DNA of 64,000 nt from Mobula hypostoma (taxonomy: Eukaryota). The stretch's first letter is position 1, and the number at the start of each line of letters is the position of its first letter. The notes below the pieces were generated by a model, which was not told the origin of the DNA, made no database searches, and saw only the letters and a list, made by a program, of their open reading frames with translations. Both the position numbers and the translations under genes were made by a program. Below are positions 6,452 through 52,988 of this stretch, in pieces. Location of the stretch: contig NC_086097.1 in the NCBI RefSeq assembly GCF_963921235.1, forward strand, positions 14,632,001 through 14,696,000. The letters run 5' to 3'.

Positions 6452-6489
<38 letters not shown>

Positions 6490-6663: not shown

Positions 6664-6735
<72 letters not shown>

Positions 6736-16571: not shown

Positions 16572-16775
16572 CGTGAACACAGCAGGCCAGGCAGCATCTC
16601 TAGGAAGAGGTACAGTCGACGTTTCAGGCCGAAACCCTTCGTCAGGACTGAAGGGTCTCGGCCCGAAACGTCGACTGTACCTCTTCCTAGAGATGCCGCC
16701 TGGCCTGCTGCGTTCACCAGCAACTTTGATGTGTGTTGCTTGAATTTCCAGCATCTGCAGAATTCCTGTTGTTTG
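16572..16775. mobile_element. Fold-back (palindromic) Penelope terminal-repeat insertion, young subfamily
   Basis: Inverted arms of about 68 bp around a centre at ~16641-16649; 12-bp TSD ctattatttatt at 16560-16571 and 16776-16787; sequence matches the 3' end of the Penelope at 46719. Confidence 0.85.
16613..16650 (-). ncRNA. Minimal type I hammerhead ribozyme motif (Penelope-associated)
   Basis: CAGTC CTGACGA A GGGT-TTCG-GCCT GAAA C GTC^ GACTG: 5-bp stem I, intact core, palindromic ACGT in place of stem III. Confidence 0.75.
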
Positions 16776-16830
16776 CTATTATTTATTACAAGTTTTGTAT
16801 GTGCCCTGATTGATATTTTGGACAAATATT

Positions 16831-17105
16831 GTTGGCAGCTCATCTTGGAGAAGGAAAACTCTAATCTCAAACCTCCACTGCCCTGCGGCTATACCCACTC
16901 ATGGGGAAAACTTCGAGAGTAAACCCTGAGGAAAAGTCTGGAGCTGGAATCTCTAAGGCAGTCCTACGTTGAGTTCAATGTTGACTGGCAACTCCTGCGA
17001 CGCCGCTGGTGCCAAGCTGTATCGGTCTCTGCCGTTCCATTGGATTCATCAGCTGCACGAGGAGGGGAAGCCTGCTGCATGGGCAATAGCTTGTTCTGTC
17101 CTGGT
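16831..17105 (+). mobile_element. RTE-5'UTR-like non-autonomous element, family A (partial)
   Basis: ggcagctcatcttggagaaggaaaactctaatctcaaacc motif; homologous to 24403-24988 and 33037-33598. Confidence 0.6.
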
Positions 17106-17984
17106 TTGAATATTCCATGCCGGATCTCTAAATAAATAAATAAATATCCTGGGTTTGAGAAACTTGTTATATAAATACAGCCTTTCCTTGTCAGAATAAG
17201 TGATGCAGGAGTTATGTATGGGACTATATTGAACCTCCTCTGATAACCATAGGGTATTTGGGGTTTCAGGATCTTACAGCCCAGAAGGACTCTAATATTG
17301 AATATCTTCCACTATTCCTTCAATAGATTGGGCACAATTATGTCTGTCATGATGAAGCTTTTGGTTTTTGTCCATTGCCCAGCACTGCAACGTAGTAAAC
17401 ATGGTTAAGGACAAACTCAGTTGTTATTTCTTAGTTTGATTGGACAGCCAGCCAGCAGTTGGTTCAGTAAATAACGTTTCGCCATTTTTCTTTCAATGAA
17501 GCATTGGAATTCTGTACAATATAACCCAGAGGAAGTTGCCATCTGGAGGAAATGTGTTTTCTTTAAAACAGAGAAATCTGTGAACATATTAGAATTCGTT
17601 GTCCTTTCTGACTTTGTGCTATGGCACATTACGGCAGTCCCTGACACTTCACGTTAAAGTGTTTGAGTCTTTGTGTCACAGCACCTGATTTCCTACTTGT
17701 GCCTGACCTGCTTTCTCTCATCAGCAAAGCAGCTTAGAATGTTCCATCATGGTAAGGGTTACCATGCAAATCCCAGTGCTTTGGTGTCTGTACGGTGGCT
17801 TTGTAAAGGCTGCTAAGGTAGAGACTGAAAAGGGCATCGGGAAAAAGATTGCCCAAGATGAAATCTCTCCTTGAGACCGTGTGTAAGGTAGAATGTGGTG
17901 CAGGGGTCAGTGTGGGAGGTCAAAAGGTTTGGGATGGGTTTCTGCTGCACAGGAAGAGAGAGGCAGATTTAGTGGTTCAAAACT

Positions 17985-18230
17985 AAGGTCTTTTGAGGAT
18001 AGGCTGAGCAAGCATTGGCGTGATGGAGGATGAGAAGTGACTTGATAGAGGTGTATAAGATGATAAGAGGTATAGATAGAGTGGACAGTCAGAGACATTT
18101 TTCCTAAGGTGTAAATGGAGGGGAACAATTTTAAGGTGAGAGTTAGAGATGTCAGAGGTATTTTTTTTTACACAGAGAGTGGTGGGTGTGTGGAACACAC
18201 TGCCAGGGGCGGTGGTGGAGGCAGATACAT
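17985..18230 (+). mobile_element. CR1/HER1-like LINE fragment
   Basis: ggaggatgagaagtgacttgatagaggtgtataagatgataagagg...cacagagagtggtgggtgtgtggaac encodes the CR1 ORF2 C-terminus (RxDLIEVYKM). Confidence 0.75.
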
Positions 18231-19059
18231 TGCCACGAAGAATGCCAGAGATGTAAATGATGGACTGATGTAAGTGTGGGCTTCAGGTTCATTAGGACAG
18301 CCTGTGTAGCGTAGTACAGTGGTTACGCTACAGAACTGGCGGTCAGAGCTCTGTAGACACACGAGTTCAAAAAACCCGTAATGGCAGCTGGGGAATTAAA
18401 CTTCAAACAATTAAATAAAGCTAGAATTAAAAAAAGAAGTTAATCTCACTAAGTATGGATTGCTGTAAAAATTCCAGCAGGTTTATTCTTATCCTTCAGA
18501 GAATGAATGAAGTCATCCTTTACTGGTCCGATGTGTGTGATTCCAGATGCAACTCTAGCCTCCTTCATTCTGGGGCAATCAGGGATAGGCAATATCTGGT
18601 GGGCGTTGCTCCTTTTATTTAAACAAACGGGGGAATGTGGGAAGAGGTAGCAAGGCTGCAGAGATGGAAGGAAGTGGAATGCACAGGGGGCTTAGGACTT
18701 TTGCAGCTCAGCTCAGGATCAGAAGGACAACCAGGTTACAAGTCAGTGATAAATGATAGGGATGACAAATAACCTGCTTTACATGTCTCCTCCCCACTTC
18801 CCCAGCTCACTGGAGACAGTACTTTTAACAAAAAAATACTGAGAGCTATTTTTAGTAAAACACGGTACTCAACGGCTCTGTAAAAGATTCTTCCTTCACA
18901 ACAGGGCTGCAACCTATTGAGGAGATCAATCCTTCGCGTCCCGTGATCTTCACATATAAAATGGTCTAGCAGTGACATCTGAAAAAGCTGTATTGGAAAT
19001 CTTTTTTTTCCTTATTTTTTTAATCCCTTGCAATATTACATTCCAATTTGCATAAACCC

Positions 19060-19885
19060 TTCAGAAGAGACTACAAAGGGCTGTAGACTCAGCCAGATTT
19101 GTCATGGGCAAAATCCTCCCCATTATCAAGGACATCTTCAAAAGGCGATGTCTCAGGAAAGCAGCATCCATCGTTATGGACCCTCACCAATCAAGGCGTG
19201 CCCTCTTCTCATTACTACCACCAGGGAGGAGGGACAGGAGCATGAAAAAGCACACTTGATGTTTCAGGAACAGCTTCTCCCCTCTGCCTTCAGATTTCTG
19301 AAAGGTCCATGAACCCAGGAAAACTACCTCATTATTCCTCTTTGCACTATTTAATTATATGTTTACGGTGACTTATTACTTACTTACTGCCTGTAATGCC
19401 TCTGGCATTTAAGGGCAGCAATGAAAGCCCTCCATCTCTAGCAGGGTTCAGGCCTTTCTTCATTATGTCAGTAGCTTCCTCTCGGTTTTCACCTCTGTCA
19501 GTCACGCAATTCCTGGGTGAAACTCAGGAATATCATCACACGCAGATGTAGAAGGATTCTTCATCGCCGTTTCCATAGCAATTTTCTTTTACCAATCAGC
19601 GTTGTTAGCCCTGAGCGGAACCCCCAAACCTGGAGGACTGGTGGACCACTCTTATTCAGGCCTCTACCCTTTGACCTTTTAGGCATGGGTGACCCCTACC
19701 AAGACAAAAGCATAAAGCTCTCACTCCAACTGACATAGCTCATTGAGACACACATGCCTCCAAACCTTGGCAAGGATGTGGTCCTCTTGGAGGACTCTTA
19801 GCAACTTTTAATTGTCGTGCACTAAACCGCTGCCACAAAGTAGAAAACTTATGTCAGTGCTAATAAACTTGATCTGAATTTGATA
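19060..19885 (+). mobile_element. Rex1/Babar LINE 3' fragment interrupted by an RTE-derived element
   Basis: gcagcatccatc...accctcacca...ttctcattactaccaccagggaggagg..caggaacagcttc block; 3' tail resumes at ~19798. Confidence 0.7.
19372..19797 (-). mobile_element. Bipartite RTE (Expander/Rex3-like)-derived non-autonomous element, family B
   Basis: Reverse complement of 57911-58330; RTE-type 5'UTR motif ggtaggggtcacccatgcc and a 3' tail ending (taag)n. Confidence 0.6.
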
Positions 19886-20644
19886 TTTTGCCAGGTAACT
19901 TTCAGAAGCTCCTCAGTTTGAGTGCTTGTCGTGAAAGACACTTGTCAGAGGATGCCATATCATGAAATCATCTCACTTGGATAGGGATGTGCAGAGAGTT
20001 TAGGTAGTTATGAATCCTACTATATTTGGCTGATTCCCTTAAGTTAAGAATGACCACAGGTGGACGAGTAGGGATAAGGAGGTGGGGGGAAGGGCGATTT
20101 CAAGTAAACTCAATGCCAAGGTTGGTTTTGAATAGTGATTTGATTCTAATAAGTTTACAACTGAACTTAAGGCAAGAGGACACATCTGGACATTCGATGA
20201 ACACAGGATCCAGTTTGAATAGAACTTAAACCCCCCCCCCCAACCCGACTTTACTGAATGATCTCAATAACACGCTAACTCTCACACCTATCTAGTCTTA
20301 GGCATGAAGCAAACAAAAGTGGCAGGGCCGGTGTAAACGACGGTCCAGTCTGACCAGGTTTAGAATTCCTCTCCTGCCAGTTCTGTCCCGTGAACACACA
20401 GTGAGACCTCGGCGTCTCCAGACTAGGGTGAATGGGACTGAACTGTTGGTTCGCAGCTCCCCCTCTTGGCCGATCTTTGCATTTTCACCAGACATCCAGC
20501 TCCTGGTCCCAACTTCCCTCTGCACGCCTTCTCCAACTCAGGCTCTCCCGGTCAAGTTAGCGTGCTTTCCGTAGCTGCCGAGCACTACCAGCTACCACCT
20601 GCATTTTTTTTTACAGTCTTTAAGAGAGGGATCTCTATAGTAAG

Positions 20645-20905: not shown

Positions 20906-22090
20906 TAAGAGTGAAACAGGTCCTAAAAATCCAGCTGAATGGGAAGAAAAAGATCAGAGCCATCAAAGCATTCACCCTACCAGTCATCAGATACCCAGCC
21001 ACAATAGTGTGCTGCCCAAGGAACGAACTGGAAGCCACTGACATCAAGATCTGGAAATACAAATAATACATGGAGGATTCTGCCCAAAGTTCAACGTTGA
21101 GCAACTGTAGAATAAAGAAGGATGGGGACTTGGAACTGTCAAGATCACAGTCCTGGAAGAAATGCAAAACACCATGAGTATGTCAGGAAGATGATCTGCT
21201 AGGAGAATACCTCAGACAGCAGTCAGGGGACATGGAAATGGAAGTGGGTGAAGCAGAGCCAGAGGACCAGAGGCCATGACAGGACAAGCCACTGCATAGG
21301 ATGTATCAACACCAGATGTCAGAGGTGGCTGACATGGGGAAGTCCTACCAATGACTGGAAATGGCAGGGCTGAGGGTCAGTACAGAGGGCTGTTCATGGC
21401 TGCACAAGGACAGGTGCTGAGCACAAGATCAATAGAAGCAGAGGTCTATCACACCAGACAAGACCCAAGATGCAGACTGTGCAAGGAATCCACTGAACCC
21501 ATCCAGCACACAATAACAGGGTGCAAGATGCAGGCAGGGACAGCAGACACTGAACAGCACAACCAAGTTGCAGAAACTGTGTGCAGGAACATCTGCACTG
21601 AGTATGGAATGGACTATCCCAATTCCAAATGGGAAACACCCGATAAGGTAGTGGACAATGACAGAGCTAAGACCCTGTGGCACTTCCAAATACAGACTGA
21701 TAGGCAGATACTGGCCAACCAACCAGACATAGTAATACTGGACAAGAAACAGAAGAAAGCGATAGTAAGAGATGTGGCAATCCCAAATGACAGTAACATC
21801 AGGAGGAAAGAATATGGAAGCTGGAGAAATACCAGGGCTTGAAAGAGCAGATAATAAGGTCGTGGAAGGTTAAAGGCAGAGTTATTCCAGTGGTGATAGG
21901 AAAACTTGGAGCTGTGACTGGGAGAGTGGCTCCAACAAGTCTTGGGAAAAACATCTGAGATCTTGGTCCAGAAGAGCGCACTGCTAAGAACAAGGAAACT
22001 GCACTGAACACTCAAGTTCTCAGACCTCTGGTAGAGGACCTGAGATTGAGGGAAAAAATACACAAACACACCACCCTTAACGGGTAAGAA
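20906..22090 (+). mobile_element. R4/Dong (Rex6-like) non-LTR retrotransposon, 5'-truncated and degenerate
   Basis: ORF 21351-21842 has a CCHC knuckle (CRLC..IQHTITGC) and a restriction-like endonuclease motif (HNQV..PDIV..D.AIP); stops and frameshifts flank it. Confidence 0.85.
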
Positions 22091-22474
22091 ATATATATAT
22101 ATATATATGCCAGTGATATCAAACCTGATTCTGTGAAACATGTCACTGGGCACTTAATTCTTTTGGATATAACAGGGCAACAAAACAGATGTACCGAACA
22201 ACCACATCAATAGTTTTGCTGTTAAAATGGGAGTGACCGTCTGAGTGAGGAAGTTTCCCCTCATGCTCCCTTTAAACAATTCACCTTTCACCCTTAACCA
22301 ATGAATGACCTCTGGTTGTCATCCCACCCAACCTCAGTTGAAAAAAAATGCCTGCTTGCATTTACTCTATCTATACCCTCATATGTGACAGTAATTAAGC
22401 CCCGATTATCAATTACCCATGATTCCTTCAGCATCTCAAAGTCTCAGATTTGAAAACAATCATTCAACATTTCA

Positions 22475-23078
22475 TCGTCGTGGCTACCCCTCGAGGTCGA
22501 GGATGATGGTCTTCGTTCTGTTGATCTACTTATGGGCTCTCAAGTGGCTTATGAGTCTACATTCAGGACAGGTAGTTCCAGGTGGCAGATCGGACTTTCG
22601 TTGTTGCTGCCTCTCTTTCCATTTTCTTCTCTTTTCTTCTAATTCTGCACATCTGTTGGCTTTGAAAGTTGCTGTTCCTTCTCGGATGATGGCTTGCCAG
22701 AGTTTCCTGTCCTTGGCATTGGTTTCCCAATTGTTGATGTCGATGTTACATTTCTTCATGTCGGCGTTTAAGACGTCTTTGAATCTCTTCTGTTGTCCGC
22801 CTCTTTTATGTTTGCCTTCTTTAAGCTGGGAGTAGAAGATTTGTTTTGGCAGACGTTCGTCTTTCATCCGAACAACATGACCGCTCCATCTTAGTTGGTT
22901 CTTGATGACGTAGGTTTCAATGCTTGTTGTTTTTATTTCATTTAGCACACTGACATTGGTTCTTCTATCTTCCCAGCTGATATTTAAAATCTTTCGAAGA
23001 CAGCGTCGATAGAACTTTTCAAGTGCCTTCAGATGTCATCGGTATGTTGTCCAGGTTTCTGATGCATACAGGAGCGTT
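22475..23078 (-). mobile_element. RTE-clade LINE 3' fragment
   Basis: ORF 22526-22948: QLRWSGHVVRMKDERLPKQIFYSQL..GGQQKRFKD..CPEC..LISH. Confidence 0.9.
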
Positions 23079-24270: not shown

Positions 24271-24402
24271 AGCCCGTGCAATAAACCACAAAAGTATTCT
24301 TGTTTCAAGGATTGAACAATTGCACAAAGAAAAAGTGCAAAGTGCAATTGCACAAAGAGCTAAAGCAAAAAGCAACACAGCAAAGCGACTTGTCAATATG
24401 TA

Positions 24403-24988
24403 GGTCCTCCACTAATCAGGGTCGACCATAAATGTTGCATCTGAGCTGTCTACGTTGATACTCAAGCCATTATGCAAGGCAGGGGAGTACGATGTGCAGA
24501 GCAAGCTGCTGTCCGTGCAGCAAGCTCCCCCTCTTTACACAGCTGATGAATCCAAAGGAACGGCAGAGACCAATACAGTTTGGCACCAGCAGCATCGCAG
24601 GAGTCGCCAGTTAGTGTTGAACTCAGCATCAGTCTGCCTTAGGGACTCTAGCTTCAGATTTTTCCCTCGATGTTTGCTCCTGAAACCTTCCCCATGAGCA
24701 GGTATAGGCGCAAGGCAGCAGAGGTTTGCGATCAGAGTTTTTCTTCTCCTAGATGAGCTGCCAGCTAGAGCTGACGAATCCCATCTGCCCAAAGCAACTG
24801 ATTTTGAGGGACCAGTGACCCACCTTTTCCCCTTCTCTTTTCAGTAGAAACAGTTCCATCAGGCTTAGTAGCTAAGCCACACATGAACGGATTTGATTGT
24901 CATGGGCTATTTGCGGTGCACAACATTGGGAGCATTTAATAGGAGCTTATCCCCACTACTCCCTCGGCTATGATAACCTTAAGGAACC
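24403..24988 (-). mobile_element. RTE-5'UTR-like non-autonomous element, family A (near full-length)
   Basis: Shares both ends (ggttcctta... and ...ggtcgaccctga) with 33037-33598; no ORF. Confidence 0.65.
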
Positions 24989-26620: not shown

Positions 26621-26789
26621 ATTCATTAGCATCAGCTTGAACCCTTCCTTAAATCTCTCAGGAGTAAATTTTGTTCAATGCCTTCATATCTTTTTTTTTA
26701 TGTTAAAGGTTAAGGTTTGTTGAAGACACCACCGTTGTTGGCCAAACCAAGTGACGAGAGAGATTGAAAATCGGGTTAAATGGGGTGCT

Positions 26790-27520
26790 ACAACAACCAA
26801 AGCAAAACCAAAGAGCTGATTATGGATTGCAGGAGGATGACGCCAGAGGTCTGTGAGTCAGTCCTCATTAGGGGATTGGAGGTTGACAGGGTCAGCAACA
26901 TTAAATTCCTTGGTGTCATCATATCAGAGGACCAACACATAAATACCATTACAAGAAGGCACAGCAATGCCTCTAATTGCTTAGAAGTTTGTGTAGATTC
27001 AGCATGTCACAAAAAAATCTTGACAAACTTCCATGGACGTTCGGTGGAGAGTATCTTAACTGGTTGCATCACTTACATGGAGCACTGCCACAAGAAAGTA
27101 GCATCCATCATCAAAGTCCCCCACCATCCAGGCCATGCTCTCTTCTCGCTACTACCATCGAGCAGGAGGTACAGGAGCCTTATGTCCCACACGACCCAGT
27201 TTAGGGACAATAGTAACCCTATATCTATCTGGCTCCTGAACCGGGGTGGATAACGCCACTCATCACAACTGATTCTACAATCTACAGACTCACTTTCGGG
27301 ACTCTTTCCAGCTCATGTTCTCAGTCATTTTTATTGCACAGCTTGTCTTCTCTCGCACGTCGGTTGTCTGTCAGTTTTTGTTTATGTATCATTTTTTTGT
27401 AAATTCTATTGCAATTCTTTGCTGTAAGTACTTGCAGGAAAATGAATCTCAAGGTACCATGGTATGTGGCACCATACAGTATACGTATTTTGATGATAAA
27501 TTTTATTTTGACTTTGAATT
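26790..27520 (+). mobile_element. Rex1/Babar LINE 3' fragment
   Basis: ORF 26780-27253: KTKELIMD..KFLGVIISED..ESILTGCIT..HHPGHALFSLLPSSRRYRS. Confidence 0.85.
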
Positions 27521-28344: not shown

Positions 28345-29365
28345 ATGCTTCCCTTGTCCACTCGTCCATCCCCACTGATCTCCCTTCCGTAACTTACCCC
28401 TGTAAGTGGGACAGGTGCTACATCTGCCCCTACACCTCCTCCCTCATCATTATTTGGGGCCCAAAATGGTCCTTCTAGCAATACTTCACCTGTGAGTCTG
28501 TCAGTTATTTACTCTATTCAATGCTTCCAGGGCGGCATCCTCTACGTCAGTGAGACCCGACATAGATTAGGGGACCGCTTCGTCGAGCACCTTCCACCTT
28601 CTGAAGGTCTAACACAAAAGGTAAGGTATCCCATTGGCCACCCATTTCGATTCTACTTCCCATTCCTATCCCAACATGTCAGTCCGTAGCCTCTTCTACC
28701 GTCACCATGAAGCCATTCTCAGGTTGGAGAAGTAACACCTCATATTCTGTTTGGGTAGTCTCCAATTTGATGGCATGAATATTGATTTCTCTAACACTTA
28801 GTATTTCCCCCTTCCCCTTTCTCCCTTTTTCCATTTTCCTCTTTCATCCCTTCCCTTTTCCTCACCTGCCCATCAACTCCCCCGGTGCCCCTCTTCCTTC
28901 CTTTTCTCCCATGGTCCACTCTCTTCGTCTATATCAGATTCTTCCTTCTTCAACCCTTTACCTCTTCCACCTATTACCTCCCAGATTCTCACTTCAACCC
29001 CCTCCTCCCACCCACCTAACTTCACCCTCACCTGGTCTCATCTAACTAACACCTGCCAACATGTACTCCTTCTCCTCCACCCACCTAACTTCACCCTCAA
29101 CTGGTCTCACCTAACTAACACCTGCCAACATGTACTCCTTCTCCTCCACCCACCTAACTTCACCCTCACCTGGTCTCACCTATCACCTGCTGCTCCTTCT
29201 CCTCCCACCACCTTCTTACTCTGGCTTCTTCCTCCTCCTTTTCCAGTCCTGATGAAAGGTCTCGGCCCAAACCATCGGCTGTTCATTCCTCTCCATAGAT
29301 GCTGTCTGAACTGTTAAGTTCCTCCAGAATTTTGTGTGTTTCCAGTACCTGCAAAATCTCTTGTG
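28345..29365 (+). mobile_element. Penelope-like element (GIY-YIG remnant plus terminal repeat), older subfamily
   Basis: LYVSETRHRLGDRFVEHL; pyrimidine-rich 3' region; decayed hammerhead at ~29244-29281. Confidence 0.85.
29011..29183. repeat. 69-bp tandem repeat (~2.5 copies) within the Penelope 3' region
   Basis: Units start at 29011, 29080 and 29149. Confidence 0.85.
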
Positions 29366-32716: not shown

Positions 32717-33036
32717 CACCTCTCCTCCTGTCCTCTCCTGGCCTGAGGACTATCACAGCAACGAAATTATTGTCAAACTCAGTGCACCAGACTCATCAGA
32801 ATGGAGACCCAGTGCTGAGGGAACAATGCCTGTAAAATAATATCTCAGTTCAGCATTCTCATGGACAATGGAAAGAAAACTAGAATGAACAGTTTGTTTT
32901 AGAAAAGGAGTCCATTGGAAAAGAAAATCCAAAACAGCACACGGTGGAATTCTGAAAAAGAACAAGAACTGGAAATGCTGGAAACACTCATCAGATCAAC
33001 CTGTTTCTCTTTCTAAAGAATGCTTCCATATTGCCT

Positions 33037-33598
33037 CTGAGGTCTCCTTTGGTCAGGGTCGACCATGAATATTGCATCCTCGCTATCTAGCTACGCAAGT
33101 ACGATATGGAGGGCCAACTGTCGCCCATGTAGCCGGCTCCCCCTTCCACACAGCTGATGAATCCAAAGGAACGACAGGGACCGAAACAGTTTGGCACCAG
33201 CAGCATTGCAGGTGTCGTCAGTCAGCGTTGAACTTGACAGAGGACTGCCTTAGGAGCTCCGGCTTCAGATTTTTCCCTCGAGGTTTTACTCCCGAAGCCT
33301 TCCCCGTGAGTTGGTACAGCTGCAAGGCAGGGAGGCTTGAGATCTCGCTTTCTTTCTCCCAGATGAGCTGCCAACCCCAGCTGATGAGCCCCTTCTGCCC
33401 AAAGCAACTGGTTTTAAGGAGCCAGTAGCCCAACTTTGCCCCCTCTCCTGTCAGTAGAAAGGGTTCCGCTGGCATGGTAGCGAAGCCACACGTGAAGGTC
33501 AGGAGCTGGACTTGGGTGTCAGAGGTATTTGAGATGCACACCATTGGGAGCTTTTAAGAGGCCGTGGGAGCTTATCCCCACTACCACCCCTAAGGAAC
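33037..33598 (-). mobile_element. RTE-5'UTR-like non-autonomous element, family A
   Basis: Colinear with 24403-24988. Confidence 0.65.
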
Positions 33599-34440
33599 CA
33601 TATTGTGACTTTAAAGGAACATAGTAAAGTGCTGATGAACAGGATTAGTATATGTGGATGCCTGAGCATCACCATGGAGACGATGGGCTGAAGGGCCTGT
33701 TTTCAGCATTGTATGACTCTAGAAACCGGTGTCCAATAATATGATGCTTGGAATTACCATGAGACCCTTCAGCAGTGTAAGTGGATACACAGCTCACCTA
33801 GGAAGGAACTTCAGGGGGTAACTCACCCAATAAATTGACTGGCTGTACTGGAAAAGGACTTTGCTTCAGTACCTGCTTATTTGCATGCCTTGTTACCAAA
33901 TTAAAACTCACGTCGAAATTGAAGATGAAGCCACCTGTTCAACTTCCAGCTGAAAAATCATTGCAAAGGCCAAAAGCTGGAAATGGTGGAAAAATTGACA
34001 AATTGTGAAGGCTGTAACTGTTGAGTAAAACAGAATCCTGGAAATACTCAGCAGATCAGGCAGTGTCCATGGGAGGGAGAAACAGAATAGTCATTTCAAT
34101 GAATGGGCCATTGACCAATTCAATCTATTCCAAAGGCTGTTGATTTGAAACATGTCTCTCTCTACATACTGTATGTTGCCTGGCTAGTAGAGTGTTCACA
34201 CCATCTTCCAGGTTTAACTAAGATTTACTGAGGCTTCTCATCTTGAGCTCTGACCTATGTGGGTGAGAGGAGAGGGGCTTATGTTTGCTGTTGCTTTTTG
34301 CTGCTTGTTCTGTCTTGTTACATTCTGTATTGTTCTGCTGAATATACTGTCCACGGTACTGTATGTTGGCACCAGAATGTGCAGCCCCCAGCACATCCTT
34401 AGGTTGTGTTGGCTATTAACGCAAATGATGCACTTTCACT

Positions 34441-34658
34441 AACAAGAGAAAATCTGCAGACGCTGGAAATCCGAGCAATGCACACAAAAGGCTGGAGGAA
34501 CTCAGCAGGCCAGGCAGCACCTAGGAAAAGAGTACAGTCGACATTTCGGGCCGAAACCCTTCGGCAGGACATGGGTTTTGGCCCGAAATGTCGACAGTAC
34601 TCTTTTCATAGATGCTGCCTGGCCTGCTGAGTTCCTTAAGCAGTTTGTATGTGTCGTG
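34441..34658. mobile_element. Fold-back Penelope terminal-repeat insertion
   Basis: Inverted arms around ~34565-34572; degenerate TSD gcactttcact / gcatttttact. Confidence 0.8.
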
Positions 34659-36044
34659 CGCATTTTTACTGTAAGTTTTGATCTACACATGATCATTAAA
34701 TGAATCTGAATTGATGTATCTTGTTTTCTTCCATTACTTTGAATATCCCTCTTTTAAATTAAATTTGTGGTGATATTTCTCAGTGAAGCCTCTGCAGGAC
34801 TTTTGTTGCATGAACAGACTGTGCCGATGAGAGGCAGTCTGCAACACCCTTCAGAACCCCCAGCAAGTATTTTTTTAAATGCACGATGCAGAAAAATAAC
34901 AACAACAGTAACATCTCTTCTGTTTTCCACATGTCTCCCGAGGCTCCAGGCACGTGCCAACTCTCTCGGTGCGCCGTCCGGTTCAGAGCCGTGTCCCGTG
35001 AGGCAACTCATGAGCCAGCTCCCCCTGCCACCGCGTACACTAAGTGGCTGCCACACACCCTAATTTCTCCACTGAGCTGAGATGCTTGGAGCCAGCTAAT
35101 CCGAAGTGTGGAGGGATTGGAGACTCAGCCAAGATACGATGGACGGTGCTCCTTGCATGTTTCACGAGAGGGGGCACCTCTTGCTTTAAGACCATAAGAC
35201 GTAGGAGCAGAATTATGCCATTCGGTCCATGGAGACTGATCTGCTGATTCATCATCCGTAACAAGATAAGAAATAGGAGCAGGAGTAGGCCATCTGGCCC
35301 GTCAAGCCTGTTCCGCCGTTCAATAAGATCATGGCTGATCTTGCCTGCCTTTTCCCTATAACCCTTAATTCCCCTACTATGCAAAAATCTAGCCAACCTT
35401 GTCTTAGATATACTTACTGAGGTAGCCTCCACTGCTTCATTGGGCACAGAATTCCACAGATTCACCACTCTTTGGGAAAAGCAGTTCCACCTCATCTCCG
35501 TCCGAAATCTACTCCCCCGAATCTTGAGGCTATGTTCCCTAGTTCTAGTCTCACCTATCAGTGGAAACAACTTTCCTGCCTTTATCTTATCTGTCCTTTT
35601 CATAATTTTATATGTTTCTATAAGATCTCCCCTCATTTTTCTGAATTCCAGCGAGTACAGTCCCAGATGACTCAATCACTCCTCATAGTCTAACCCCCTC
35701 ATCACTGGAATCAACCTGGTGAACCTCCCCTGCACTACCTCCAAAGCCAGTATATCCTTCCTCAAGTAAGGAGACCAGAACTGCATGCAGTACTCTAGCA
35801 ATGAAGGCCAGCATTCCATTTGCCTTCTTGATAGCCTGCTGCACCTGCAAACCAACCTTTTGTGATTCATGCACAAGCACTCCCAAGTCCCTCTGCAAAG
35901 TAGCATGCAGCAAATTTTTACCACATAGTTGATAATCTGCTCTTTCATTTTTCTTTCCAAAGTTGATGACCTCACATTTACCAACATTGTACTCCATCTG
36001 CCAGACCCTTGTCCACTCACTTAACCTATCTATATCTCTCTGCA

Positions 36045-36275
36045 TAAACGTGAGGAATTCTGCAGATGCTGGAAATTCAAGCAACACACATCAAAGTTGC
36101 TAGTGAACGCAGCAGGCCACGCAGCATCTCTAGGAAGAGGTACAGTCGACGTTTCGGGCCGAAACCCTGTTAGTTAGTCCTGACGAAGAGTCTCGGCCCG
36201 AAATGTCAACTGTACCTCTTCCTAGAGATGTTGCCTGGCCTGCTGCGTTCACCAGCAACTTTGATGTGTGTTGCT
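36045..36275. mobile_element. Fold-back Penelope terminal-repeat insertion, young subfamily, nested in CR1
   Basis: Inverted arms of about 90 bp; 14-bp TSD tata(t/c)ctctctgca at 36031-36044 and 36276-36289; mutated hammerhead at 36176-36211 (+). Confidence 0.85.
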
Positions 36276-36621
36276 TATACCTCTCTGCAGACTCTCCATA
36301 TCTTCTGCACAATTTGCTTTTCCATTCAATTTAGTGTCATCAGCAAACTTAGATACACAATACTCAGTCCCCTTTCTGGATCATTAATGTATATCATGAA
36401 TATTTGTGGGCCCAGCACCAACCCCTGATTGCCAACCAGAGCAACACATATGTATCCTAACTCTCTGCTTTCTATTAGCTAACCAATCTTCTATCGATGC
36501 TAATACATCACCTCCAACTCAATGCATCCTTATCTAATGGGTAAGTTATCCCTCTCAACCCCATTCTCCTGCCTTCTCCCCATATCCTTTGGGAATCTAT
36601 CAACTTCCACCTTAAATATAC

Positions 36622-38625: not shown

Positions 38626-38994
38626 AGGTATGTGTCCTCGTAGAATTGTAACCCAGCAGGACATAGAACAGAGACTGCTGATTGGCTGAAGGATGCATTA
38701 AGCTAATATCCCATTGGATCAGCACATAGGACAGGAAATAAACCCAATGACCATTGGAGGGCAGGCAAGAGAGGTATGTGGAAACTTGGTCAAGACGTCC
38801 TGGGAAGGCATTAAAACAGTAAAGAAGCAGTGAATGATGGTATCTGCAACAGAAACACTCAGTAGGTCAGGCAGTATCTGTGGATAGAGAAACAGAGGAG
38901 ATGTTTCGGTTCAATGAACTTCCATCAGAACTGTCCACCATCTCTCTAAGATAGTTCTGTTGATCTTGTTTCTCCCTCTGCAGATGCATCACAC

Positions 38995-42649: not shown

Positions 42650-43375
42650 CATGAGCACTACAGCACCAATACAGGACCTTCGGCCCATCTGGTCTGTGTT
42701 GGACTATTGTTCTGCAGAGTCTCGTCAACCTGCACCCAGTCTATAGCCCTCCATACCCTTCTCATCCATGTACCTATCCAAAATTTCTCTTCAATGTTGA
42801 AATTGTTACCGCATCCACCACTTCCACTGGCAGTTCATTCAATACTCTCACCATCCTCTGAGTGAAGAAGTTCCCCCCACGTTCCTCTTAAACATTTCAC
42901 CTTTCACTTTTAACCCATCACCTCTAGCTGTAGTCTCACCAAACCTCACTAGAAAATGCCTGCTTATATTTACCTTATCAAAGCCCCTCAAAATTTTCTC
43001 AGCACCTTTTACTTGAAACATTAATTCTGCTTCCCTCTCCAGTGCCATCCCTGACTTAGGCGGTAAAGATAAATTCACACTCTGACACTCTTGTACAGAC
43101 ACAATCCTGAATTATCTAAGCAACACACGCAAAATGCTGGAGGAACTCAGTAGGCCAGACAGCATCTATGGAAAAGAGTAAACAGTCGATGTTTCAGGCT
43201 GAGACCCTTCATCAGGAACCATTAAATTTCATTGAAGAGAAACCTGGATAGGTACATGGATAGGAAGGGTACAGAGGGCAATGGTCTGGGTGCAGGTCGA
43301 TTGATGAGACGCTGCAGAATAATAGTTCAACACAGACCAGATGGGCCAAAAGGCCTGTTTCTGTGCTGTAGTTCT
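42650..43375. mobile_element. CR1 fragments flanking a Penelope terminal-repeat piece (~43120-43218)
   Basis: Minus strand of 43183-43218 reads CTGATGAAGGGTCTCAGCCTGAAACATCGACTG. Confidence 0.65.
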
Positions 43376-43914: not shown

Positions 43915-44555
43915 TCCTGTCATTAGGAAGGAGGTTCAGGAGCCTCAGGACCCACACCATGAGGTTCAGAAATAGTTATTACCCCTTAACCATCTTGAAC
44001 AAGAGAGATAACTTCACTCAATTTAACTCATGCCAACGCTGAATTGTTTCTACAGCCAATGGACTCACTTTCAAGCAATACATACAAAGTGCTGGAGGAA
44101 CTCGGCAGGCCAGGCAGCATCTATGGAAAAGAGTAAACAGTCGACATTTCAGGCTGAGAACCTTCACCAGGTTCTGGTGAAAGGTCTCATCCCAAAGCAT
44201 CCACTCCATAGCTGCTGCCTGGCCTGCTGAGTTCCTCCAGCACTTTGTGTGGTTTACTTTGATTTCCAGAGTCTGCAGATTTTCTCTTGTGCGTGGCTCA
44301 CTTTCAAGGACTTCTTCATCTCATGTTCTCGATATGTATTGATTATTTGTTTATTATTATTATTTCTGTCTTTCTGTATTTGCGCAGTTTGATGTATTTT
44401 GCATATTGGTTGTTTGTCCGTCACTGTCATGTGCGGTTTTTCACTGATTCTATTGTGTTTCTTTGGATTTACTGTGAATGCCGACAAGAAAATGAATCTC
44501 CGGGTAGTATATGGTGGTGTATATGTACTTTGATAATAAATTTACTTTGAACTTT
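43915..44555 (+). mobile_element. Rex1/Babar 3' end carrying a fold-back Penelope insertion at 44076-44296
   Basis: 12-bp TSD ctcactttcaag at 44064-44075 and 44297-44308; palindrome centre ccttcaccag-gtt-ctggtgaaagg. Confidence 0.8.
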
Positions 44556-46280: not shown

Positions 46281-46718
46281 ATAGATGATATGTCATGAGT
46301 GGGTTACTTGTTCTTGGTGTCATTTGATTTAAACAGTTGCTGCAGTTAAACCACTGGTCAATGATATTGATGATGTGGGATCCAGCTACAGCACTGGCAT
46401 TGACTGCCAACGATCAAAGTTCAGAGTAAATTTATTATCAAAGTATGTATATATCACCTTAGTACCCTGAGATCCACTTTTTTCAGGCACTTACAGTAGA
46501 ACAAAGACATTCAACAGAGTCAAAGAAAACTACACATAAAAACTAACAAACAACTGATGCTCAAAGAAAACAATTTGAGCAATTAGAAAAAAAGCAACAA
46601 ATAATAACAGGTGAATAAGTAATAAATAATATTGAGAACATGAGTTGTAGAGTCCTTGAGGGTGAGCCCATTGGTTGAGGAATCAGTGCAGTGTTGAGGT
46701 CAGTGTTGTTATCCATGC

Positions 46719-47650
46719 AACACACATCAAAGTTGCTGGTGAACGCAGCAGGCCAAGCAGCATCTATAGGAAGAGGCGCAGTCGACGTTTCAGGCCGAGA
46801 CCCTTCGTCAGGACTAACTGAAGGAAGAGTGAGTAAGGGATTTGAAAGCTGGAGGGGGAGGGGGAGATGCAAAATGATAGGAGAAGACAGGAGGGGGAGG
46901 GATAGAGCCGAGAGCTGGACAGGTGATAGGCAAAAGGGGATACGAGAGGATCATGGGACAGGAGGTCCGGGAAGAAAGACGGGGGGGGGGTGACCCAGAG
47001 GATGGGCAAGAGGTATATTCAGAGGGACAGAGGGAGAAAAAGGAGAGTGAGAGAAAGAATGTGTGCATAAAAATGAGTAACAGATGGGGTACGAGGGGGA
47101 GGTGGGGCCTAGCGGAAGTTAGAGAAGTCAATGTTCATGCCATCAGGTTGGAGGCTACCCAGACGGAATATAAGGTGTTGTTCCTCCAACCTGAGTGTGG
47201 CTTCATCTTTACAGTAGAGGAGGCCGTGGATAGACATGTCAGAATGGGAATGGGATGTGGAATTAAAATGTGTGGCCACTGGGAGATCCTGCTTTCTCTG
47301 GCGGACAGAGCGTAGATGTTCAGCAAAGCTGTCTCCCAGTCTGCGTCGGGTCTCGCCAATATATAAAAGGCCACATCGGGAGCACCGGACGCAGTATATC
47401 ACCCCAGCCGACTCACAGGTGAAGTGATGCCTCACCTGGAAGGACTGTTTGGGGCCCTGAATGGTGGTAAGGGAGGAAGTGTAAGGGCATGTGTAGCACT
47501 TGTTCCGCTTACACGGATAAGTGCCAGGAGGGAGATCAGTGGGGAGGGATGGGGGGGACGAATGGACAAGGGAGTTGTGTAGGGAGCGATCCCTGCGGAA
47601 TGCAGAGAGAGGGGGGGAGGGAAAGATGTGCTTAGTGGAGGTGATCCCAT
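46719..47650 (-). mobile_element. Penelope-like element, young, 5'-truncated, with uninterrupted GIY-YIG domain ORF
   Basis: ORF 47109-47663: CYTCPY..FTCESAGVIYCVRCSRCGLLYIGETRRRLGDSFAEHL..EEQHLIFRLGSLQPDGMN; 15-bp TSD tgttgttatccatgc at 46704-46718 and 47651-47665. Confidence 0.93.
46780..46815 (-). ncRNA. Minimal type I hammerhead ribozyme motif
   Basis: AGTC CTGACGA A GGGT-CTCG-GCCT GAAA C GTC^ GACT, in the same sense as the Penelope ORF and ~300 nt after its stop. Confidence 0.78.
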
Positions 47651-48619
47651 TGTTGTTATCCATGCTGGTTCAGGAGCCTGAAGGTTGAATGGTACTAACT
47701 TAACATGGTGGTGTGGGACCTAAGGCTCCTGTACGTCCTTCTCAATGGTAGCCATTGCATTCATAGAGCATAGCCTGGGTGGTGCTGGTCCTTCGTGATG
47801 TAGATTCTCTTTCCTTGTGGCAGCACTCCCGTAGATGTGCTCAATGGTGGGGAGGGCATTTCCTGTAATAGACTGGGCTGCCAAGGATATATGCTATCGT
47901 TTTTTAAAAGCAGAACAACCAATTAGTAAGGTTTCACAGGTAATTCGGTAAATCAGTTTATTATTTTCGCCTGTACTGAGGTACAGTTAAAAACCCATCT
48001 TACATACTGTTCATACCGATCAAATGATGACACAGTGCATTGAGGTGTAACAATAACAGAGTGCAGAAGAAAGTGTTACAGTTATGGAAAAAGTGCAGGT
48101 AGACAGTAAAGTGCGAGCTAATACATGTAAAACGAAGTATATTATGAGGTTAAAGGAACTGGGCATGAAATGGGCTCGTAACTCGTGTAAATAGGGTTAT
48201 TAAGCACGATTGCTCTCAGCGCTGTCATTGTGGTCTGACTCCAGAGGTGATTGTCGTTCACATTCTGGCCAGTGTTAGTGCACTTTCACGGCACTGAGGA
48301 GTGGGCCGACACAAAAGCGGTCCTCCGGGCTGCTGATAATTTGCTGTTCTATCCAATTACCGAATGCCCTAAAAACAGTAATGATGTCCGAGTATGTGTA
48401 CAATGTGTATCTGATTAAAGATCCCTTCAACAGCAGTCAAATTTAAATTCCTATTCGTGCAATAGGGCGAATAATTAGAATTCACTCTGAACGCTGAGAT
48501 GTACACATTCGGATAAGATTTTTGAATACATTTAATTATTGTCTCCCTGTACTTTGATGCATCTAACACCCACCTGAACCTTGCCTACACCTCTTCAGAC
48601 CTGCTTGCCACTGAACAAG

Positions 48620-49142: not shown

Positions 49143-49242
49143 ACTTGCCTCCTCTGCAGTGAGCCTAGCCTGCCTAAGACAGGGAGACCAGACCACAATA
49201 ATCTGGGAGCAGTCACACCGGAACCCCATAGAGTTCCAGTGT

Positions 49243-49748
49243 GGGTGGCATGCTAGTGGTTAGCATAACGCTACTACAACGCCAGCGATCCACTTTCAAT
49301 TCCCGATTCTGGGACTGTACGTTCCCCCCGTGACTACCAGGGTTTCGTCTGGGTGCTCCCGTTTCCTCACACAGTCCATACAGTTCAAAGTTCAAAAGTT
49401 CAAAGTATATTATCGAAGTATGTATACACTATGCAACCTTTAATTCATCTCCTTACAGGCAGATACAAGACAAAGAAACGCAAAATAACCCATTAAAAGG
49501 AAGACGACTGTCAAAGAGAGAAGACGAACCGTGCAAACAATGAAAGTAAGCGAATAGCACTCAGAAACGAAGTTTTACAACAGACACGAAGCCAGGCGTC
49601 TCTGCAACCGGAGCAGACCGCAGCCTCAGTTCCGCACAGAGCCGAGTAGACGACTAGTCGGGTAATTGGTCACGTGCGTGTAATTGGGCAGTGTGGGCTT
49701 GTGGGCTGAATTACCGTGCTGCATCTCTAAATAAATAATAAATAAATT
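49243..49748 (+). mobile_element. V-SINE interrupted by a Rex1-tail-type insertion (~49381-49650)
   Basis: Head gctagtggttagc, V-domain, resumption ggtaattggtcac and (aata)n tail. Confidence 0.65.
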
Positions 49749-50319
49749 GCAGAAAGATACAGATGGGGATACAGGTTTAGAAGCAGATCAGGGATTTAAG
49801 AAGCTGCTTACAGAACAATATAACTTGGCGACAGGCTGGCAACAGCCTGATGACCTGAACAGAGCTTTCCTGTGTTACAGCTCACCGGCTGGAACCATGG
49901 TATCATGACCTTGGACCAACCCAGTTCTACCAATTCCCTTATCAGTATCATAGCAAGGATTGTAAAGCTTAAACAGGGAAGGAAATCAAATAATCTTAGA
50001 GAACACCAATAAAATTTACAGAGTGCATTGACCTTTGGGTTTATGATGCCAATTTATTCCTCCACAACAGGACCATCTTTTAATTCTCCCTTTTGCCCTC
50101 TCCCTACACAGTGTGGTAACTATTTGACGGTGCATTTTTCCTCAATGCAGTAGCCCCTATTGACTCCTATTGTTAAAAAAAGGCACCCATCAAAGGTGGA
50201 CAGAGCAGCAGTAGGGGGTAGCCATAGTTTTACTGCTGTCTTTGTCTGTGTGTTATTGCCCAGAAGTTTAATTAAAGTTTCCATTGTTGTACATTTACCA
50301 CAGTTACCTCAATCCCAAC

Positions 50320-51430
50320 ACATCACCACCATCAATACCAGCCTACCCGCTGTCAAGGATATACATACAGAAAGGTACCAGAAAAGAGTCAGTAACATCG
50401 TGAAGAATCCCACCCGCCCTGCTCATGGACTGTTTATCCCACTTGTATCAGAAGGCGGTTACGTAGCATCCATGCCAGGACCACCAGACTCAAAAACAAT
50501 TACTTTCCCCAAGCAGATTGGCTCATCCAAACCTCCACCCACAACCCCACCCCTCCACACCCCCACCACCACTACTTTATCATTTCTTGTTGAAGTAAGA
50601 AGTCATACAGTGCTTCGGCCTTCAACAACCGTGGGATTGAGTTCAAGAGCCAGGAGGCAATGTTACAGCTATCTAGGACCCTGGTGAGACGCCACTTGGA
50701 GTACTGTGCTCAGTTCTGGTCACCTCACTACAGGAAGGATGAGGAAACTACAGAAAGGGTGTTGAAGAGATTTACAAGGATGTTGCCTGGATTGGGGAGT
50801 ATGCCTTATGAGAATAGGTTGAGTGAACTTGACCTTTACTCCTTGGAGTGATGGAGGATGAGAGGTGACCTGATAGAGGTGTATAAGATGATGAGAGGCA
50901 TTGATTGTGTGGATAGTCAGAGGCTTTTTCCCAGGGCTGAAATGGCTAACACAAGAGGACACAGTTTTTAGGTGCTTGGAAGTAGGTACAGAGGAGATGT
51001 CAGGGGTAAGTTTTTTACGCAGAGAGTGGTGACTGCATGGAATGGGCTACCGGTGATAGTGGTGGAGGCGGATACGATAGGGTCTCTTAAGTGACTCCTG
51101 GATAGGTACATGGAGCTTAGAAAAATAGAGGGCTATGGGTAACCCTAGGTAATTTCTAAAGTAAGTACATGTTCAGCACAGCGTTGTGGGCTGAAGAGGC
51201 TGTATTGTGTTGTAGGTTTTCTATTATTCACCTCACATATGGATGATCCAGTGCCTAGCGTCATGTTATAGACATACAACCAATCTGTGTATATAAGCTA
51301 TCTTACGGATTTCTATTTAGCATGATTTTTTTATTATTGTGTTCTTATCTCTTTTTGAGCTGCATTGGACCTGGAGTAACAATTATTTTGTTCTCCTTTA
51401 CACTGGAAATAACATTAAACAATCTTGAAT
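50320..51430 (+). mobile_element. Rex1/Babar 3' fragment with nested CR1 (~50628-51226)
   Basis: CR1 ORF LVRRHLEYCAQFWSPHYRKD..ERVLKRFTRMLPGL. Confidence 0.8.
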
Positions 51431-51692
51431 CACTGTCGCTCAGCTGATGACACATTTTACGCTGAGGCAACAGGTCTGTGTCTTGCCCCAGAGGTTTACA
51501 ATGAGGCGTTTATAATCCGGTGCCAAGAGAGTGCCACATTGTGAAAGGTGCTGCCTTTCAGGTAAGTGTGAGAAATCCCAGGTAAAAGAACATACAGTCA
51601 TATAGCACAGGAGCAGGCACTTAGGCCTAACTGGTCCACGCCAAAAAAGATTCCCAACTGAGCCTGACCCATTTGTCTGGATACCTTTAGGT

Positions 51693-51769
51693 CAGGGGTC
51701 CCAACTTTTTTATGCCATTGACCAATGTCATTAACAAGGGGTCCGTGGTCTCCAGGTTGGAAACCCCTG
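51693..51769. mobile_element. 77-bp hAT (Charlie-like) MITE
   Basis: TIRs caggggtcccaac / gttggaaacccctg; perfect 8-bp TSD ctttaggt at 51685-51692 and 51770-51777. Confidence 0.85.
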
Positions 51770-51904
51770 CTTTAGGTAAAAGAAACAACATCATGAAGTG
51801 GCTGTTATTTCATTAGCGCTTATGGGAGCTTGCTATGTCCAAGTTGGCAGCCACGTTTCCCTCAACTTTGTCAAGGGTTTAAATAGACACAGCATACTCA
51901 GAAT

Positions 51905-51985
51905 CTGGCTGACCTGTTGAGTTCCTCCAGCATTTTGTGTGTGTTGCTTGGATTTCCAGCATCTGCAGATTTTCTTGTGTTTGTG
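51905..51985 (+). mobile_element. Penelope terminal 3' fragment
   Basis: gagttcctccagcattttgtgtgtgttgcttggatttccagcatctgcagatttt. Confidence 0.7.
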
Positions 51986-52714
51986 ATATTCAGTAAAGTG
52001 CTTCGGGAAGGCCAGAGGTCATGTGATTTAAATGTAAGTCCTCGCTTCTTATTAGAATTGGCTTTGGATTGTAAATGTGCATTCCGCACATTGACCTGAA
52101 ACATGAACTCTTCCTGCCAAACCAACTATCGACTTTCAGACCTTGCTGCCTTTATTCCAGATTGGCGCTTGGGTTTTGGATTGTAACTCGGAGTGAAATA
52201 GTTTCTCTGCTCCAGGATCTCTTCGCTGCGGAGAGTGATTCTTTGTTCCTGTTCATTGTGTCAGCATGACCCAGACTGACTGTGGTATCTCACCTACAGT
52301 TACTGCCTTTGTATTGCCACCTGTGTAGATGAGAGTCACCTCAACCAAATAAATTTATCAGCAGTAGCTTGGCAGAGCTTTCACCTTATATTTCACAAGG
52401 GAAAGCTGAGCAGAGATAAACAAATAAAGCTGGTTAGTCACAAGCAGTTGTTCAAAGAACAGTGGAAAATATATTTGCAATTATACCTGCCTGGGATCCT
52501 TCATGCAATGGGACTTAAAAGGCTCAATGCTTGAAAACTATATGTAAATTATTGAGACAGCTGTATGTTCCAGTATTGTGGAAGTCAAACCAACTGCTTC
52601 AATAACTTAGTGCCTTTAATGTGGAGGAACTATCTCAAGCGGCTTCATATAAATATAATTGAGATAAGATACAATCCCCAGCATCATCAGAAAGTTCTCT
52701 CTGTAGTACCCTAT

Positions 52715-52988
52715 ACACAAGACATTCTGCAGATGCTGGAAATCTAGAGTAACACACACAAAGTGCTGGTGGAACTCAATAGATCAGGCAGCGTCTATGG
52801 AATCAACAGTTGACGCTTTGGGCCAAGACCCTTCATCAGGACTGGAAAGGAAGAGGGAAGAAGCCAGAATAAGAAGGTGATAGATGTGTACTCCTTCCCT
52901 TCCCTCCACTTTATTCTGGATTCTTCCCCCTCCTTTCTAGACGCGATGAAGGGTCTCGGTCCAAAATGCCATCTATTTATTCCTCTGT
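52715..52988. mobile_element. Fold-back Penelope terminal-repeat element, older subfamily
   Basis: Inverted arms with two decayed hammerheads (~52807-52845 minus, ~52940-52975 plus). Confidence 0.7.

What the first reader, a model, noticed from the sequence alone, without database searches (positions are those of the whole stretch)
16572..52988. Fold-back Penelope insertions whose inversion centre falls in the ribozyme
Seen: five ~200-270 bp palindromic insertions (16572, 34441, 36045, 44076, 52715), at least three with clear 12-14 bp TSDs. In four, the centre lies at the 5' half of the hammerhead (stem I, CUGANGA or the start of stem II), yet each junction differs (gtcaggact, ggacatggg, ccctgttagttag, ccaggttctgg), implying independent events in two subfamilies. 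Inference: reverse transcription stalls or switches template at the ribozyme, repeatedly producing MITE-like, ORF-less hairpin elements. These would form dsRNA when transcribed from either strand.
Basis: partly seen in the sequence, partly recalled or inferred. Interest (0 to 1): 0.7.

Follow-up and report, generated by a model that had tools for sequence, protein, structure and literature searches.

The report
Short two-armed Penelope retroelement insertions
These five small hairpin-shaped insertions are severely shortened, dead copies of a Penelope-type jumping gene laid down in its known two-armed pattern, and their turning points do cluster at the front edge of its ribozyme motif, most likely because of a short self-complementary sequence there and not because of ribozyme action.

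Summary
All five fold-backs are real: 204-270 bp, clear 12-14 bp TSDs in 3 of 5, five different junctions. They are 5'-truncated ends of a very high-copy GIY-YIG Penelope-like element, in the published layout of inverted copy, one-sided ~35-nt tail and TSD. They are not MITEs.

Four centres lie within about 5 nt of the first C of CUGANGA (post hoc p 0.0001-0.04). A decayed sixth candidate also centres there; the fifth and a seventh candidate do not.

The stall reading is weak. The centres sit 25-30 nt 5' of the cleavage site, beyond the helices that reverse transcriptase meets first. Seven of 10 simple copies run straight through the motif, and only 1 of 10 stops there.

A better fit is a native 5-bp inverted match where a long pyrimidine tract meets the purine-rich core. 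This agrees with Arkhipova's palindrome-at-junction self-priming idea, but no junction is an exact product of that match.

The genome-wide histogram could not be obtained. No transcription is shown; the elements lie upstream of a BCL11 gene. This scan reported the same pattern before, in this genome and two others.

The parts
16572..16775 (.). E1 fold-back, subfamily A: short arm 16573-16649 (element sense on minus, -4 to +70), long tailed arm 16650-16775 (+6 to +133)
16560..16571 (+). E1 left TSD copy (12 bp exact; partner 16776-16787)
16776..16787 (+). E1 right TSD copy
16621..16645 (-). Only intact minimal hammerhead core among the 10 arms
   Evidence: anatomy by inspection against Cervera and De la Pena 2014
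34441..34655 (.). E2 fold-back, B-like: tailed arm 34441-34570 (minus, starts -3), short arm ~34571-34655 (starts +7 to +9); no clear TSD
36045..36275 (.). E3 fold-back, subfamily A: tailed arm 36046-36168 (minus, starts +8), 3-nt filler, short arm from 36172 (plus, starts -8)
36031..36044 (+). E3 left TSD copy (14 bp, one mismatch; partner 36276-36289)
44076..44296 (.). E4 fold-back, subfamily B: short arm 44076-44171 (minus, starts -1), tailed arm 44172-44296 (starts -2); both arms share a private change in the core
44064..44075 (+). E4 left TSD copy (12 bp exact; partner 44297-44308)
52715..52985 (.). E5 older fold-back, subfamily B; centre in the pyrimidine tract about 50-70 nt upstream of the core, not in the ribozyme
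34010..34197 (.).
   Evidence: partner arm scores 108 against the 38845-38945 copy, 0 of 1000 shuffles; against its own partner 98 of 1000
32938..33050 (.). E7, candidate seventh decayed fold-back; centre about +42, downstream of the ribozyme
   Evidence: score 94, 1 of 1000 shuffles against one copy, 145 of 1000 against another
46719..47650 (-). Simple 5'-truncated copy with 15-bp TSD; links the repeat to a GIY-YIG ORF end; reference for subfamily A
47109..47669 (-). Open frame holding the GIY-YIG endonuclease end of the element
   Evidence: Atlas 0.96 to eukaryotic clusters with GIY-YIG on 13-56% of members; no Pfam hit at E<=0.01, no NCBIfam hit
60717..60902 (-). Simple tailed copy with 14-bp TSD, 5' end at -53 (reads through the hammerhead)
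43114..43217 (-). The one simple A/B copy whose 5' end is at the ribozyme edge (-2); no TSD

Best explanation
Each hairpin is one dead-on-arrival insertion of an endonuclease-positive Penelope-like element. Shown: TSDs, head-to-head arms, a tail on one arm, the same 3' repeat joined to a GIY-YIG ORF in longer copies, and different junctions. Inferred: (1) the element's protein cut both target strands 12-15 bp apart and started reverse transcription at its two internal start sites, giving a tailed and a tail-less arm. (2) cDNA synthesis stopped early. (3) The cDNA end was rescued by pairing through a short inverted match, either on itself or with a second cDNA. Upstream of the hammerhead the sense strand is about 80% pyrimidine for 250 nt, so purine-rich cDNA ends there have almost nothing to pair with until the purine-rich start of the core and stem II. 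A native 4-5 bp inverted match centred at -0.5 to -3 therefore collects many turns. The ribozyme marks the place only through its sequence; its cleavage or fold is not needed.
For: The layout matches published Penelope insertions: inverted 5'-truncated copy, 30-40 bp one-sided tail, TSD (PMC8557442), and 'palindromes at the inverted junction' read as self-priming (PMC3846280). An Anolis element nicks and extends both strands, starts at two sites and does not need ribozyme cleavage in vitro (PMC11167929). A native inverted match centred at -0.5 to -3 is found in 5 of 8 reference copies, and at -7.5 to -9 in two more. Pyrimidine fraction is 0.76-0.81 upstream. In a toy model needing 5 bp, 25-100% of turns fall in -10..+5 against 6-9% for uniform. 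Arm starts spread on both sides of a fixed centre (-8/+8, -4/+6, -3/+8, -1/-2), as pairing would give; a stall would give one shared position. E1 and E3 each lie one small indel (E3 also one substitution) from the junction predicted from the 46.7-kb copy (by eye). Fold-backs 4 of 5 against simple copies 1 of 10 within +-10, Fisher p 0.017.
Against: No junction is an exact microhomology product of any reference copy in the window; E2 and E4 show no convincing match. With a 4-bp requirement the toy model gives only 4-35%, and little or no enrichment in the three B references. Equal or stronger inverted matches at +63 to +85 have no fold-back. The native hairpin is weak (-0.1 to -1.7 kcal/mol). 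n is 5-7, and the cluster was chosen after seeing it; under the narrowest null, p is 0.04 (4 of 5) or 0.10 (5 of 7). In E1 and E3 neither arm contains the other, so a plain single-cDNA snap-back needs later trimming or a second template. The genome-wide test failed to give usable data.
Confidence: 0.55

Rival explanations
1. The cluster is small-sample chance plus selection of short palindromes; genome-wide the turns are spread out.
For: Only 5-7 cases. E5 and candidate E7 lie elsewhere. p rises to 0.04-0.10 under the narrowest null with a wider span.
Against: 4 of 5 within 5 nt gives p 0.00007-0.006 under five nulls. A profile search of the whole window found no longer fold-back that was missed. 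The blind candidate E6 also centres there.
Confidence: 0.2
2. One reading: reverse transcriptase stalls at the folded, dimerised or protein-bound ribozyme, and the stalled cDNA ends are joined.
For: The centres coincide with stem I 5' strand, core and stem II start. Minimal hammerheads are thought to act as dimers (PMC4209133), and the Anolis ribozyme cleaves only with the protein present (PMC11167929). E1 and E3 each carry two different loop-II alleles, in opposite phase, which suggests two templates.
Against: RT comes from the 3' side and would meet stem I 3' strand (+33) and stem II (+20) first; none of the eight ends is there, nor at the cleavage site (+28/+29). Seven of 10 simple copies pass the motif and 1 of 10 ends there. 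The loop allele enrichment is not significant (4 of 10 vs 0 of 7, p 0.10).
Confidence: 0.12
3. The RNA template begins, or is spliced, just 5' of the hammerhead (transcription start or 3' splice site), so cDNAs run off there.
For: A pyrimidine tract (16-20 of 20) followed by AG directly precedes the core. In D. virilis the intron end maps to the 5' end of helix I (PMC4209133). E4's arms and the copy at 43217 start at -1/-2.
Against: E1 and E3 keep bases upstream of the putative acceptor. Three arms start at +6 to +9. All seven A/B simple copies that reach upstream carry the unspliced tract. The tract is pyrimidine-rich for 250 nt, so the acceptor look is unspecific.
Confidence: 0.1
4. A self-amplifying MITE-like or non-autonomous hairpin family with a fixed centre.
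For: Tightly shared centre and similar sizes; E1 and E3 share polarity.
Against: 5 of 5 junctions and outer ends differ. Subfamilies and ages differ (arm divergence 7-34%). TSDs are 12-14 bp and the ends are asymmetric. No strand-change joint is among the 15 shown of 2457 (weak, the table was cut).
Confidence: 0.03

Closest known systems
Inverted-pLTR insertion units of EN+ Penelope-like elements (Arkhipova et al. 2013, PMC3846280, passages seen; Craig et al. 2021, PMC8557442, passages seen)
   Same: Head-to-head inverted 5'-truncated copy, optional 30-40 bp tail on one arm, TSD, palindrome at the inverted junction.
   Different: Here both arms are cut down to ~75-165 nt with no ORF. The passages I saw do not place the junction at the hammerhead.
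Minimal hammerheads of metazoan PLEs (Cervera and De la Pena 2014, PMC4209133, parts 1-2 of 4 read)
   Same: Type I core with no stem III loop, an unpaired base before stem II and a short stem I. The paper reports dual motifs 100-700 bp apart on opposite strands.
   Different: Here the two motifs abut or overlap at the turn, and 9 of 10 arms have lost or mutated the core.
Poseidon element of Anolis carolinensis in vitro (Frangieh et al. 2024, PMC11167929, parts 1-2 of 4 read)
   Same: Two internal RT starts define the tail; the motif lies about 100-150 nt upstream of them; both strands are cut and extended; AT-rich targets (E1).
   Different: That paper does not analyse inverted junctions in the text I read. 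Clade membership of this element was not tested.
L1 twin priming (recalled; only a search listing of PMC2837659 seen)
   Same: Two primed strands, an inverted 5' part, TSD, junction microhomology.
   Different: L1 inversions do not duplicate sequence; here both arms cover the same 3' region.
MITEs (definition recalled)
   Same: Short, non-coding, hairpin-forming.
   Different: No matched terminal inverted repeats, long variable TSDs, retroelement origin, no repeated copy.

Membership tests
EN+ Penelope-like element insertion | 3' repeat linked to a C-terminal GIY-YIG endonuclease | tested here: met
   The same repeat follows the 47109-47669 frame within one TSD. Atlas 0.96 to GIY-YIG clusters; Pfam and NCBIfam gave no hit.
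EN+ Penelope-like element insertion | PLE-type reverse transcriptase in the parent element | not tested
   No copy in the window was seen to reach the RT; no genome is held.
EN+ Penelope-like element insertion | Minimal hammerhead in the pseudo-LTR | tested here: met
   7 pattern matches against 1.35 expected, 4 of them in this family; alignment. Rfam found no hammerhead at E<=1.
EN+ Penelope-like element insertion | Adjacent inverted 5'-truncated copy, head-to-head | tested here: met
   5 of 21 loci clearly, 2 more candidates.
EN+ Penelope-like element insertion | 30-40 bp tail on one end only | tested here: met
   Long arms end at +130 to +133. Short arms end near +94 to +97 (E2, E3, E4), +70 (E1) and about +42 (decayed E5).
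EN+ Penelope-like element insertion | Target-site duplication | tested here: met
   3 of 5 fold-backs, and the simple copies at 46.7 and 60.7 kb, 12-15 bp.
Penelope/Poseidon versus Neptune clade | RT phylogeny and linker motif | not tested
   Only the C-terminal 186 residues are available.
MITE | Matched terminal inverted repeats at both ends | tested here: not met
   Outer ends differ by 35-90 nt.
MITE | Short fixed TSD of a DNA transposase | tested here: not met
   12-14 bp with unrelated sequences.
MITE | Many near-identical copies of one unit | tested here: inconclusive
   5 of 5 differ in the window; the genome-wide joint table was cut.
Non-LTR retrozyme | Tandem head-to-tail units, each with a type I hammerhead | tested here: not met
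   The units are inverted, not tandem; definition from bioRxiv 10.64898/2026.07.22.740005, part 1 of 5.
Active hammerhead ribozyme | Self-cleavage of the RNA | not testable with these tools
   In E1, enforcing stem I with an open core costs 48 kcal/mol against the hairpin, so folding is unlikely in the full insert.

The most novel reading that the evidence does not exclude
The fixed turn is the footprint of the unknown second half of Penelope integration. A dimeric protein primes both target strands on two RNAs held together through their dimer-forming hammerheads. The two cDNAs meet and anneal at the ribozyme's 5' edge, where a conserved inverted match has been kept as a built-in joining signal. 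This would explain the one-sided tail, arms that do not contain each other (E1, E3), different alleles in the two arms, and a non-catalytic role for the hammerhead region.
Probability: 0.15. Interest if true: 0.65.

Novelty: new member of a known kind. Interest (0 to 1): 0.3.

Why it matters
The pattern itself is ordinary for Penelope-like elements. What is left of interest is positional. How Penelope elements make their inverted 5' copy, and what the hammerhead is for, are open questions in the papers read. A genome with a very large number of copies (254,741 contigs of one run lay on 1.1 kb) would let a junction histogram separate stall, run-off and microhomology models at little cost. Such hairpins could also be misannotated as MITEs or microRNA precursors: Rfam gave sub-threshold miRNA-type hits on E3 and E5.

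Tried and rejected
Whole genome: none held. The generic inverted-repeat scan was swamped by microsatellites. Rfam: 12 hits at E<=1, none at gathering score, no hammerhead.

Related DNA elsewhere: pattern scans of the metagenome, genome and viral collections gave 0 hits. The GIY-YIG protein found no confirmed relative in metagenome or genome contigs (121 and 90 candidates, 0 confirmed). A sequence look-up in earlier findings gave 0, as did one word look-up.

Public runs: only Logan contigs were offered. Laying 4 runs on 46640-47720 showed 15 of 2457 joints, none labelled as a strand change, and the tool warned that some were not counted. Two unlabelled joints near the motif (46811 to 46725, 46826 to 46787) could be tandem or inverted, so I did not use them. 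The depth drop upstream of the motif is confounded by subfamily divergence.

Four old C-like simple copies (38.9, 39.4, 42.5, 62.8 kb) were left out of the 1-of-10 count because their native upstream sequence is not in my model. Two of them appear to end at -9 and -13; counting them would weaken the contrast. The second Fisher table (5/7 vs 1/12) is therefore not used.

Literature: nine searches ran. None listed a paper placing inversion junctions at the hammerhead. Most subscription papers are not covered, and I did not read the supplements of PMC11167929, PMC4209133 or PMC3846280, which may show junction positions.
Full report
Observation. Self-BLAST and self-alignment confirm five inverted-arm insertions at the stated places: E1 16572-16775, E2 about 34441-34655, E3 36045-36275, E4 44076-44296, E5 about 52715-52985. 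E1, E3 and E4 have TSDs of 12-14 bp. E2 and E5 have none at one mismatch and only weak two-mismatch candidates. The four junction strings are as quoted. E1 folds at -143 kcal/mol with z -18, and all five fold at -114 to -176 on either strand. Arm identities are 64/69, 71/83, 83/90, 68/84 and 40/61, so the events differ in age. E1 and E3 belong to one subfamily (A, 91-96% to each other and to the copies at 46.7 and 60.7 kb); E2, E4 and E5 belong to another (B-like).

What the arms are. A profile built from 12 simple copies and one fold-back arm finds 26 hits at E<0.05, which make 21 loci; the reversed window gives only one hit, at E 6.8. The copy at 46719-47650 carries the same repeat behind an open frame, inside a 15-bp TSD. 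The frame scores 0.96 to eukaryotic Atlas clusters where 13-56% of members carry GIY-YIG; Pfam and NCBIfam give no hit. The repeat holds a minimal type I hammerhead, of the kind described by Cervera and De la Pena (PMC4209133, parts 1-2 read), who also saw pairs on opposite strands 100-700 bp apart. One arm of each fold-back ends at +130 to +133 (C of CUGANGA = +1). The other ends about 35 nt earlier in E2, E3 and E4, and earlier still in E1 and E5. This is the published Penelope layout: inverted 5'-truncated copy, one-sided 30-40 bp tail, TSD (PMC8557442, passages; PMC3846280, passages). The tail reflects two internal RT starts in the Anolis element (PMC11167929, parts 1-2). The family is very abundant: 254,741, 164,463, 109,107 and 90,727 contigs of four runs lay on 1.1 kb.

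Context. A BCL11-type gene lies on the minus strand: a Pfam PF25491 exon at 509-1000 and a first exon near 5961 (found with a recalled motif). The fold-backs are thus 10-47 kb upstream of the gene, not in an intron. dsRNA would need transcription that I did not test. Only 1 of 10 arms keeps an intact core, and there the ribozyme fold costs 48 kcal/mol against the hairpin.

Is the cluster real? Arm starts read from alignments are -4/+6 (E1), -3/+8 (E2), -8/+8 (E3) and -1/-2 (E4), each uncertain by 1-3 nt. The centres are +1, +2.5, 0 and -1.5; E5 is at about -50 to -70. Four of five within 5 nt has p 0.00007-0.006 under five nulls, and within 10 nt up to 0.04; the test is post hoc. I found two more decayed candidates in 12 shuffle comparisons. 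E6 (34010-34197) centres at about -3; it scored 0 of 1000 against one relative but 98 of 1000 against its own arm. E7 (32938-33050) centres at about +42; it scored 1 of 1000 and 145 of 1000. Five of seven gives p 0.00004-0.10. Among the 10 simple A/B copies, 7 run through the motif, 2 end downstream and 1 ends at -2 (Fisher against 4 of 5, p 0.017). Only two of these have a verified TSD. Four old copies were left out, two of which seem to end near -9 and -13. So the cluster is probably real in this window; genome-wide it is untested, because no genome is held and the joint table showed 15 of 2457 rows.

Why there? Reverse transcriptase comes from the 3' side. A block by structure should appear at +33 or +20, and run-off from a cleaved RNA at +29. 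None of the eight ends is there, and the simple copies show no clear pile-up. The sequence offers another reason. The 250 nt upstream are 76-81% pyrimidine, so cDNA ends there are purine-rich and can hardly pair with one another. Where the tract meets the purine-rich core there is a 4-5 bp inverted match centred at -0.5 to -3 in 5 of 8 reference copies. A toy model that trims a cDNA end back to the first 5-bp match puts 25-100% of turns in -10..+5, against 6-9% by uniform chance; with 4 bp it puts 4-35% there, with little gain in B references. E1 and E3 are each one small indel from the junction this match predicts (E3 also has a substitution). E2 and E4 show no convincing match, and similar matches at +63 to +85 are unused. 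Arkhipova et al. already noted palindromes at inverted junctions and proposed self-priming. I put this reading at 0.55.

One or two templates? In E1 and E3 the arm that reaches further upstream is the tail-less one, so neither arm contains the other. They also differ at +13, in opposite phase, at a site where both alleles occur in the window. Both points suit two cDNAs primed from the two target strands, in line with two-strand extension and a predicted dimer in the Anolis protein. E4's arms share a private core change, and E2's arms share rare features, which suits self-copying or a single source. The data cannot choose between these. The novel case, two RNAs paired at their hammerheads with a conserved joining signal, stays at 0.15.

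Other rivals. A splice acceptor or start site at the motif's 5' edge has a precedent in D. virilis, but E1 and E3 keep upstream bases and all longer copies are unspliced (0.10). A MITE-like family fails on ends, TSDs and junction identity (0.03). Chance stays at 0.2.

Prior notes and print. Earlier reports of this scan describe the same short two-armed insertions in two other genomes and in this one. One of them also ties the turn to short inverted matches; I saw it after forming that idea, and it is not independent support. Nine literature searches listed no paper placing the turn at the hammerhead; supplements and subscription papers were not seen. PMC9977147 (four passages) only adds that very short 5'-truncated PLE insertions are common. 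The MITE and L1 twin-priming definitions are recalled. The host being a cartilaginous fish comes from earlier notes and was not tested.

Verdict. This is a new member of a known kind, with a modest, testable positional bias. Interest 0.3.

Noticed in passing
window 33154-33187 (+); family copies at about 33097-33419, 24486-24809, 16831-17084: A second, unrelated repeat family (three copies, about 79% alike). The 33.1-kb copy has a CTGANGA...GAAAC motif, but the hammerhead fold is not the predicted minimum (z 0.47). One copy lies 55 bp from E1.
   Followed up: partly
window 509-1000 and about 5910-5970 (-): Exons of a BCL11-type gene (PF25491, E 1.5e-14; first exon). The rest of the window is its upstream region.
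   Followed up: partly
E1, E2, E3 arms, position +13: A loop-II allele that makes a near-perfect 15-nt local palindrome occurs in 4 of 10 fold-back arms and 0 of 7 simple copies (p 0.10).
   Followed up: partly
window 46811 to 46725 (table 5c): A multi-copy joint (depth about 210 in run X1) joining the first base of the core to the 3' end of the repeat. It may be a retrozyme-like tandem of the 90-nt end unit; the kind of joint was not labelled.
   Followed up: no
window 46812-46820 and 60850-60858 (-): Subfamily A has two AG dinucleotides four bases apart just upstream of the core, where subfamily B has one; the ribozyme's stem I 5' strand overlaps this acceptor-like site.
   Followed up: partly
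window 29002-29213: An internal duplication of about 85 nt (82% alike) and further ~54-nt repeats in the pyrimidine tract of the old plus-strand copy; similar ~30-nt go-back joints appear.
   Followed up: no
window 21333-23035, 26780-27253, 35040-35675, 57126-57635: Open frames that look like fragments of other non-LTR retrotransposons (by eye; not searched).
   Followed up: no
window 6090-6750: Opposed microsatellite tracts give long inverted repeats close to the gene's first exon.
   Followed up: no
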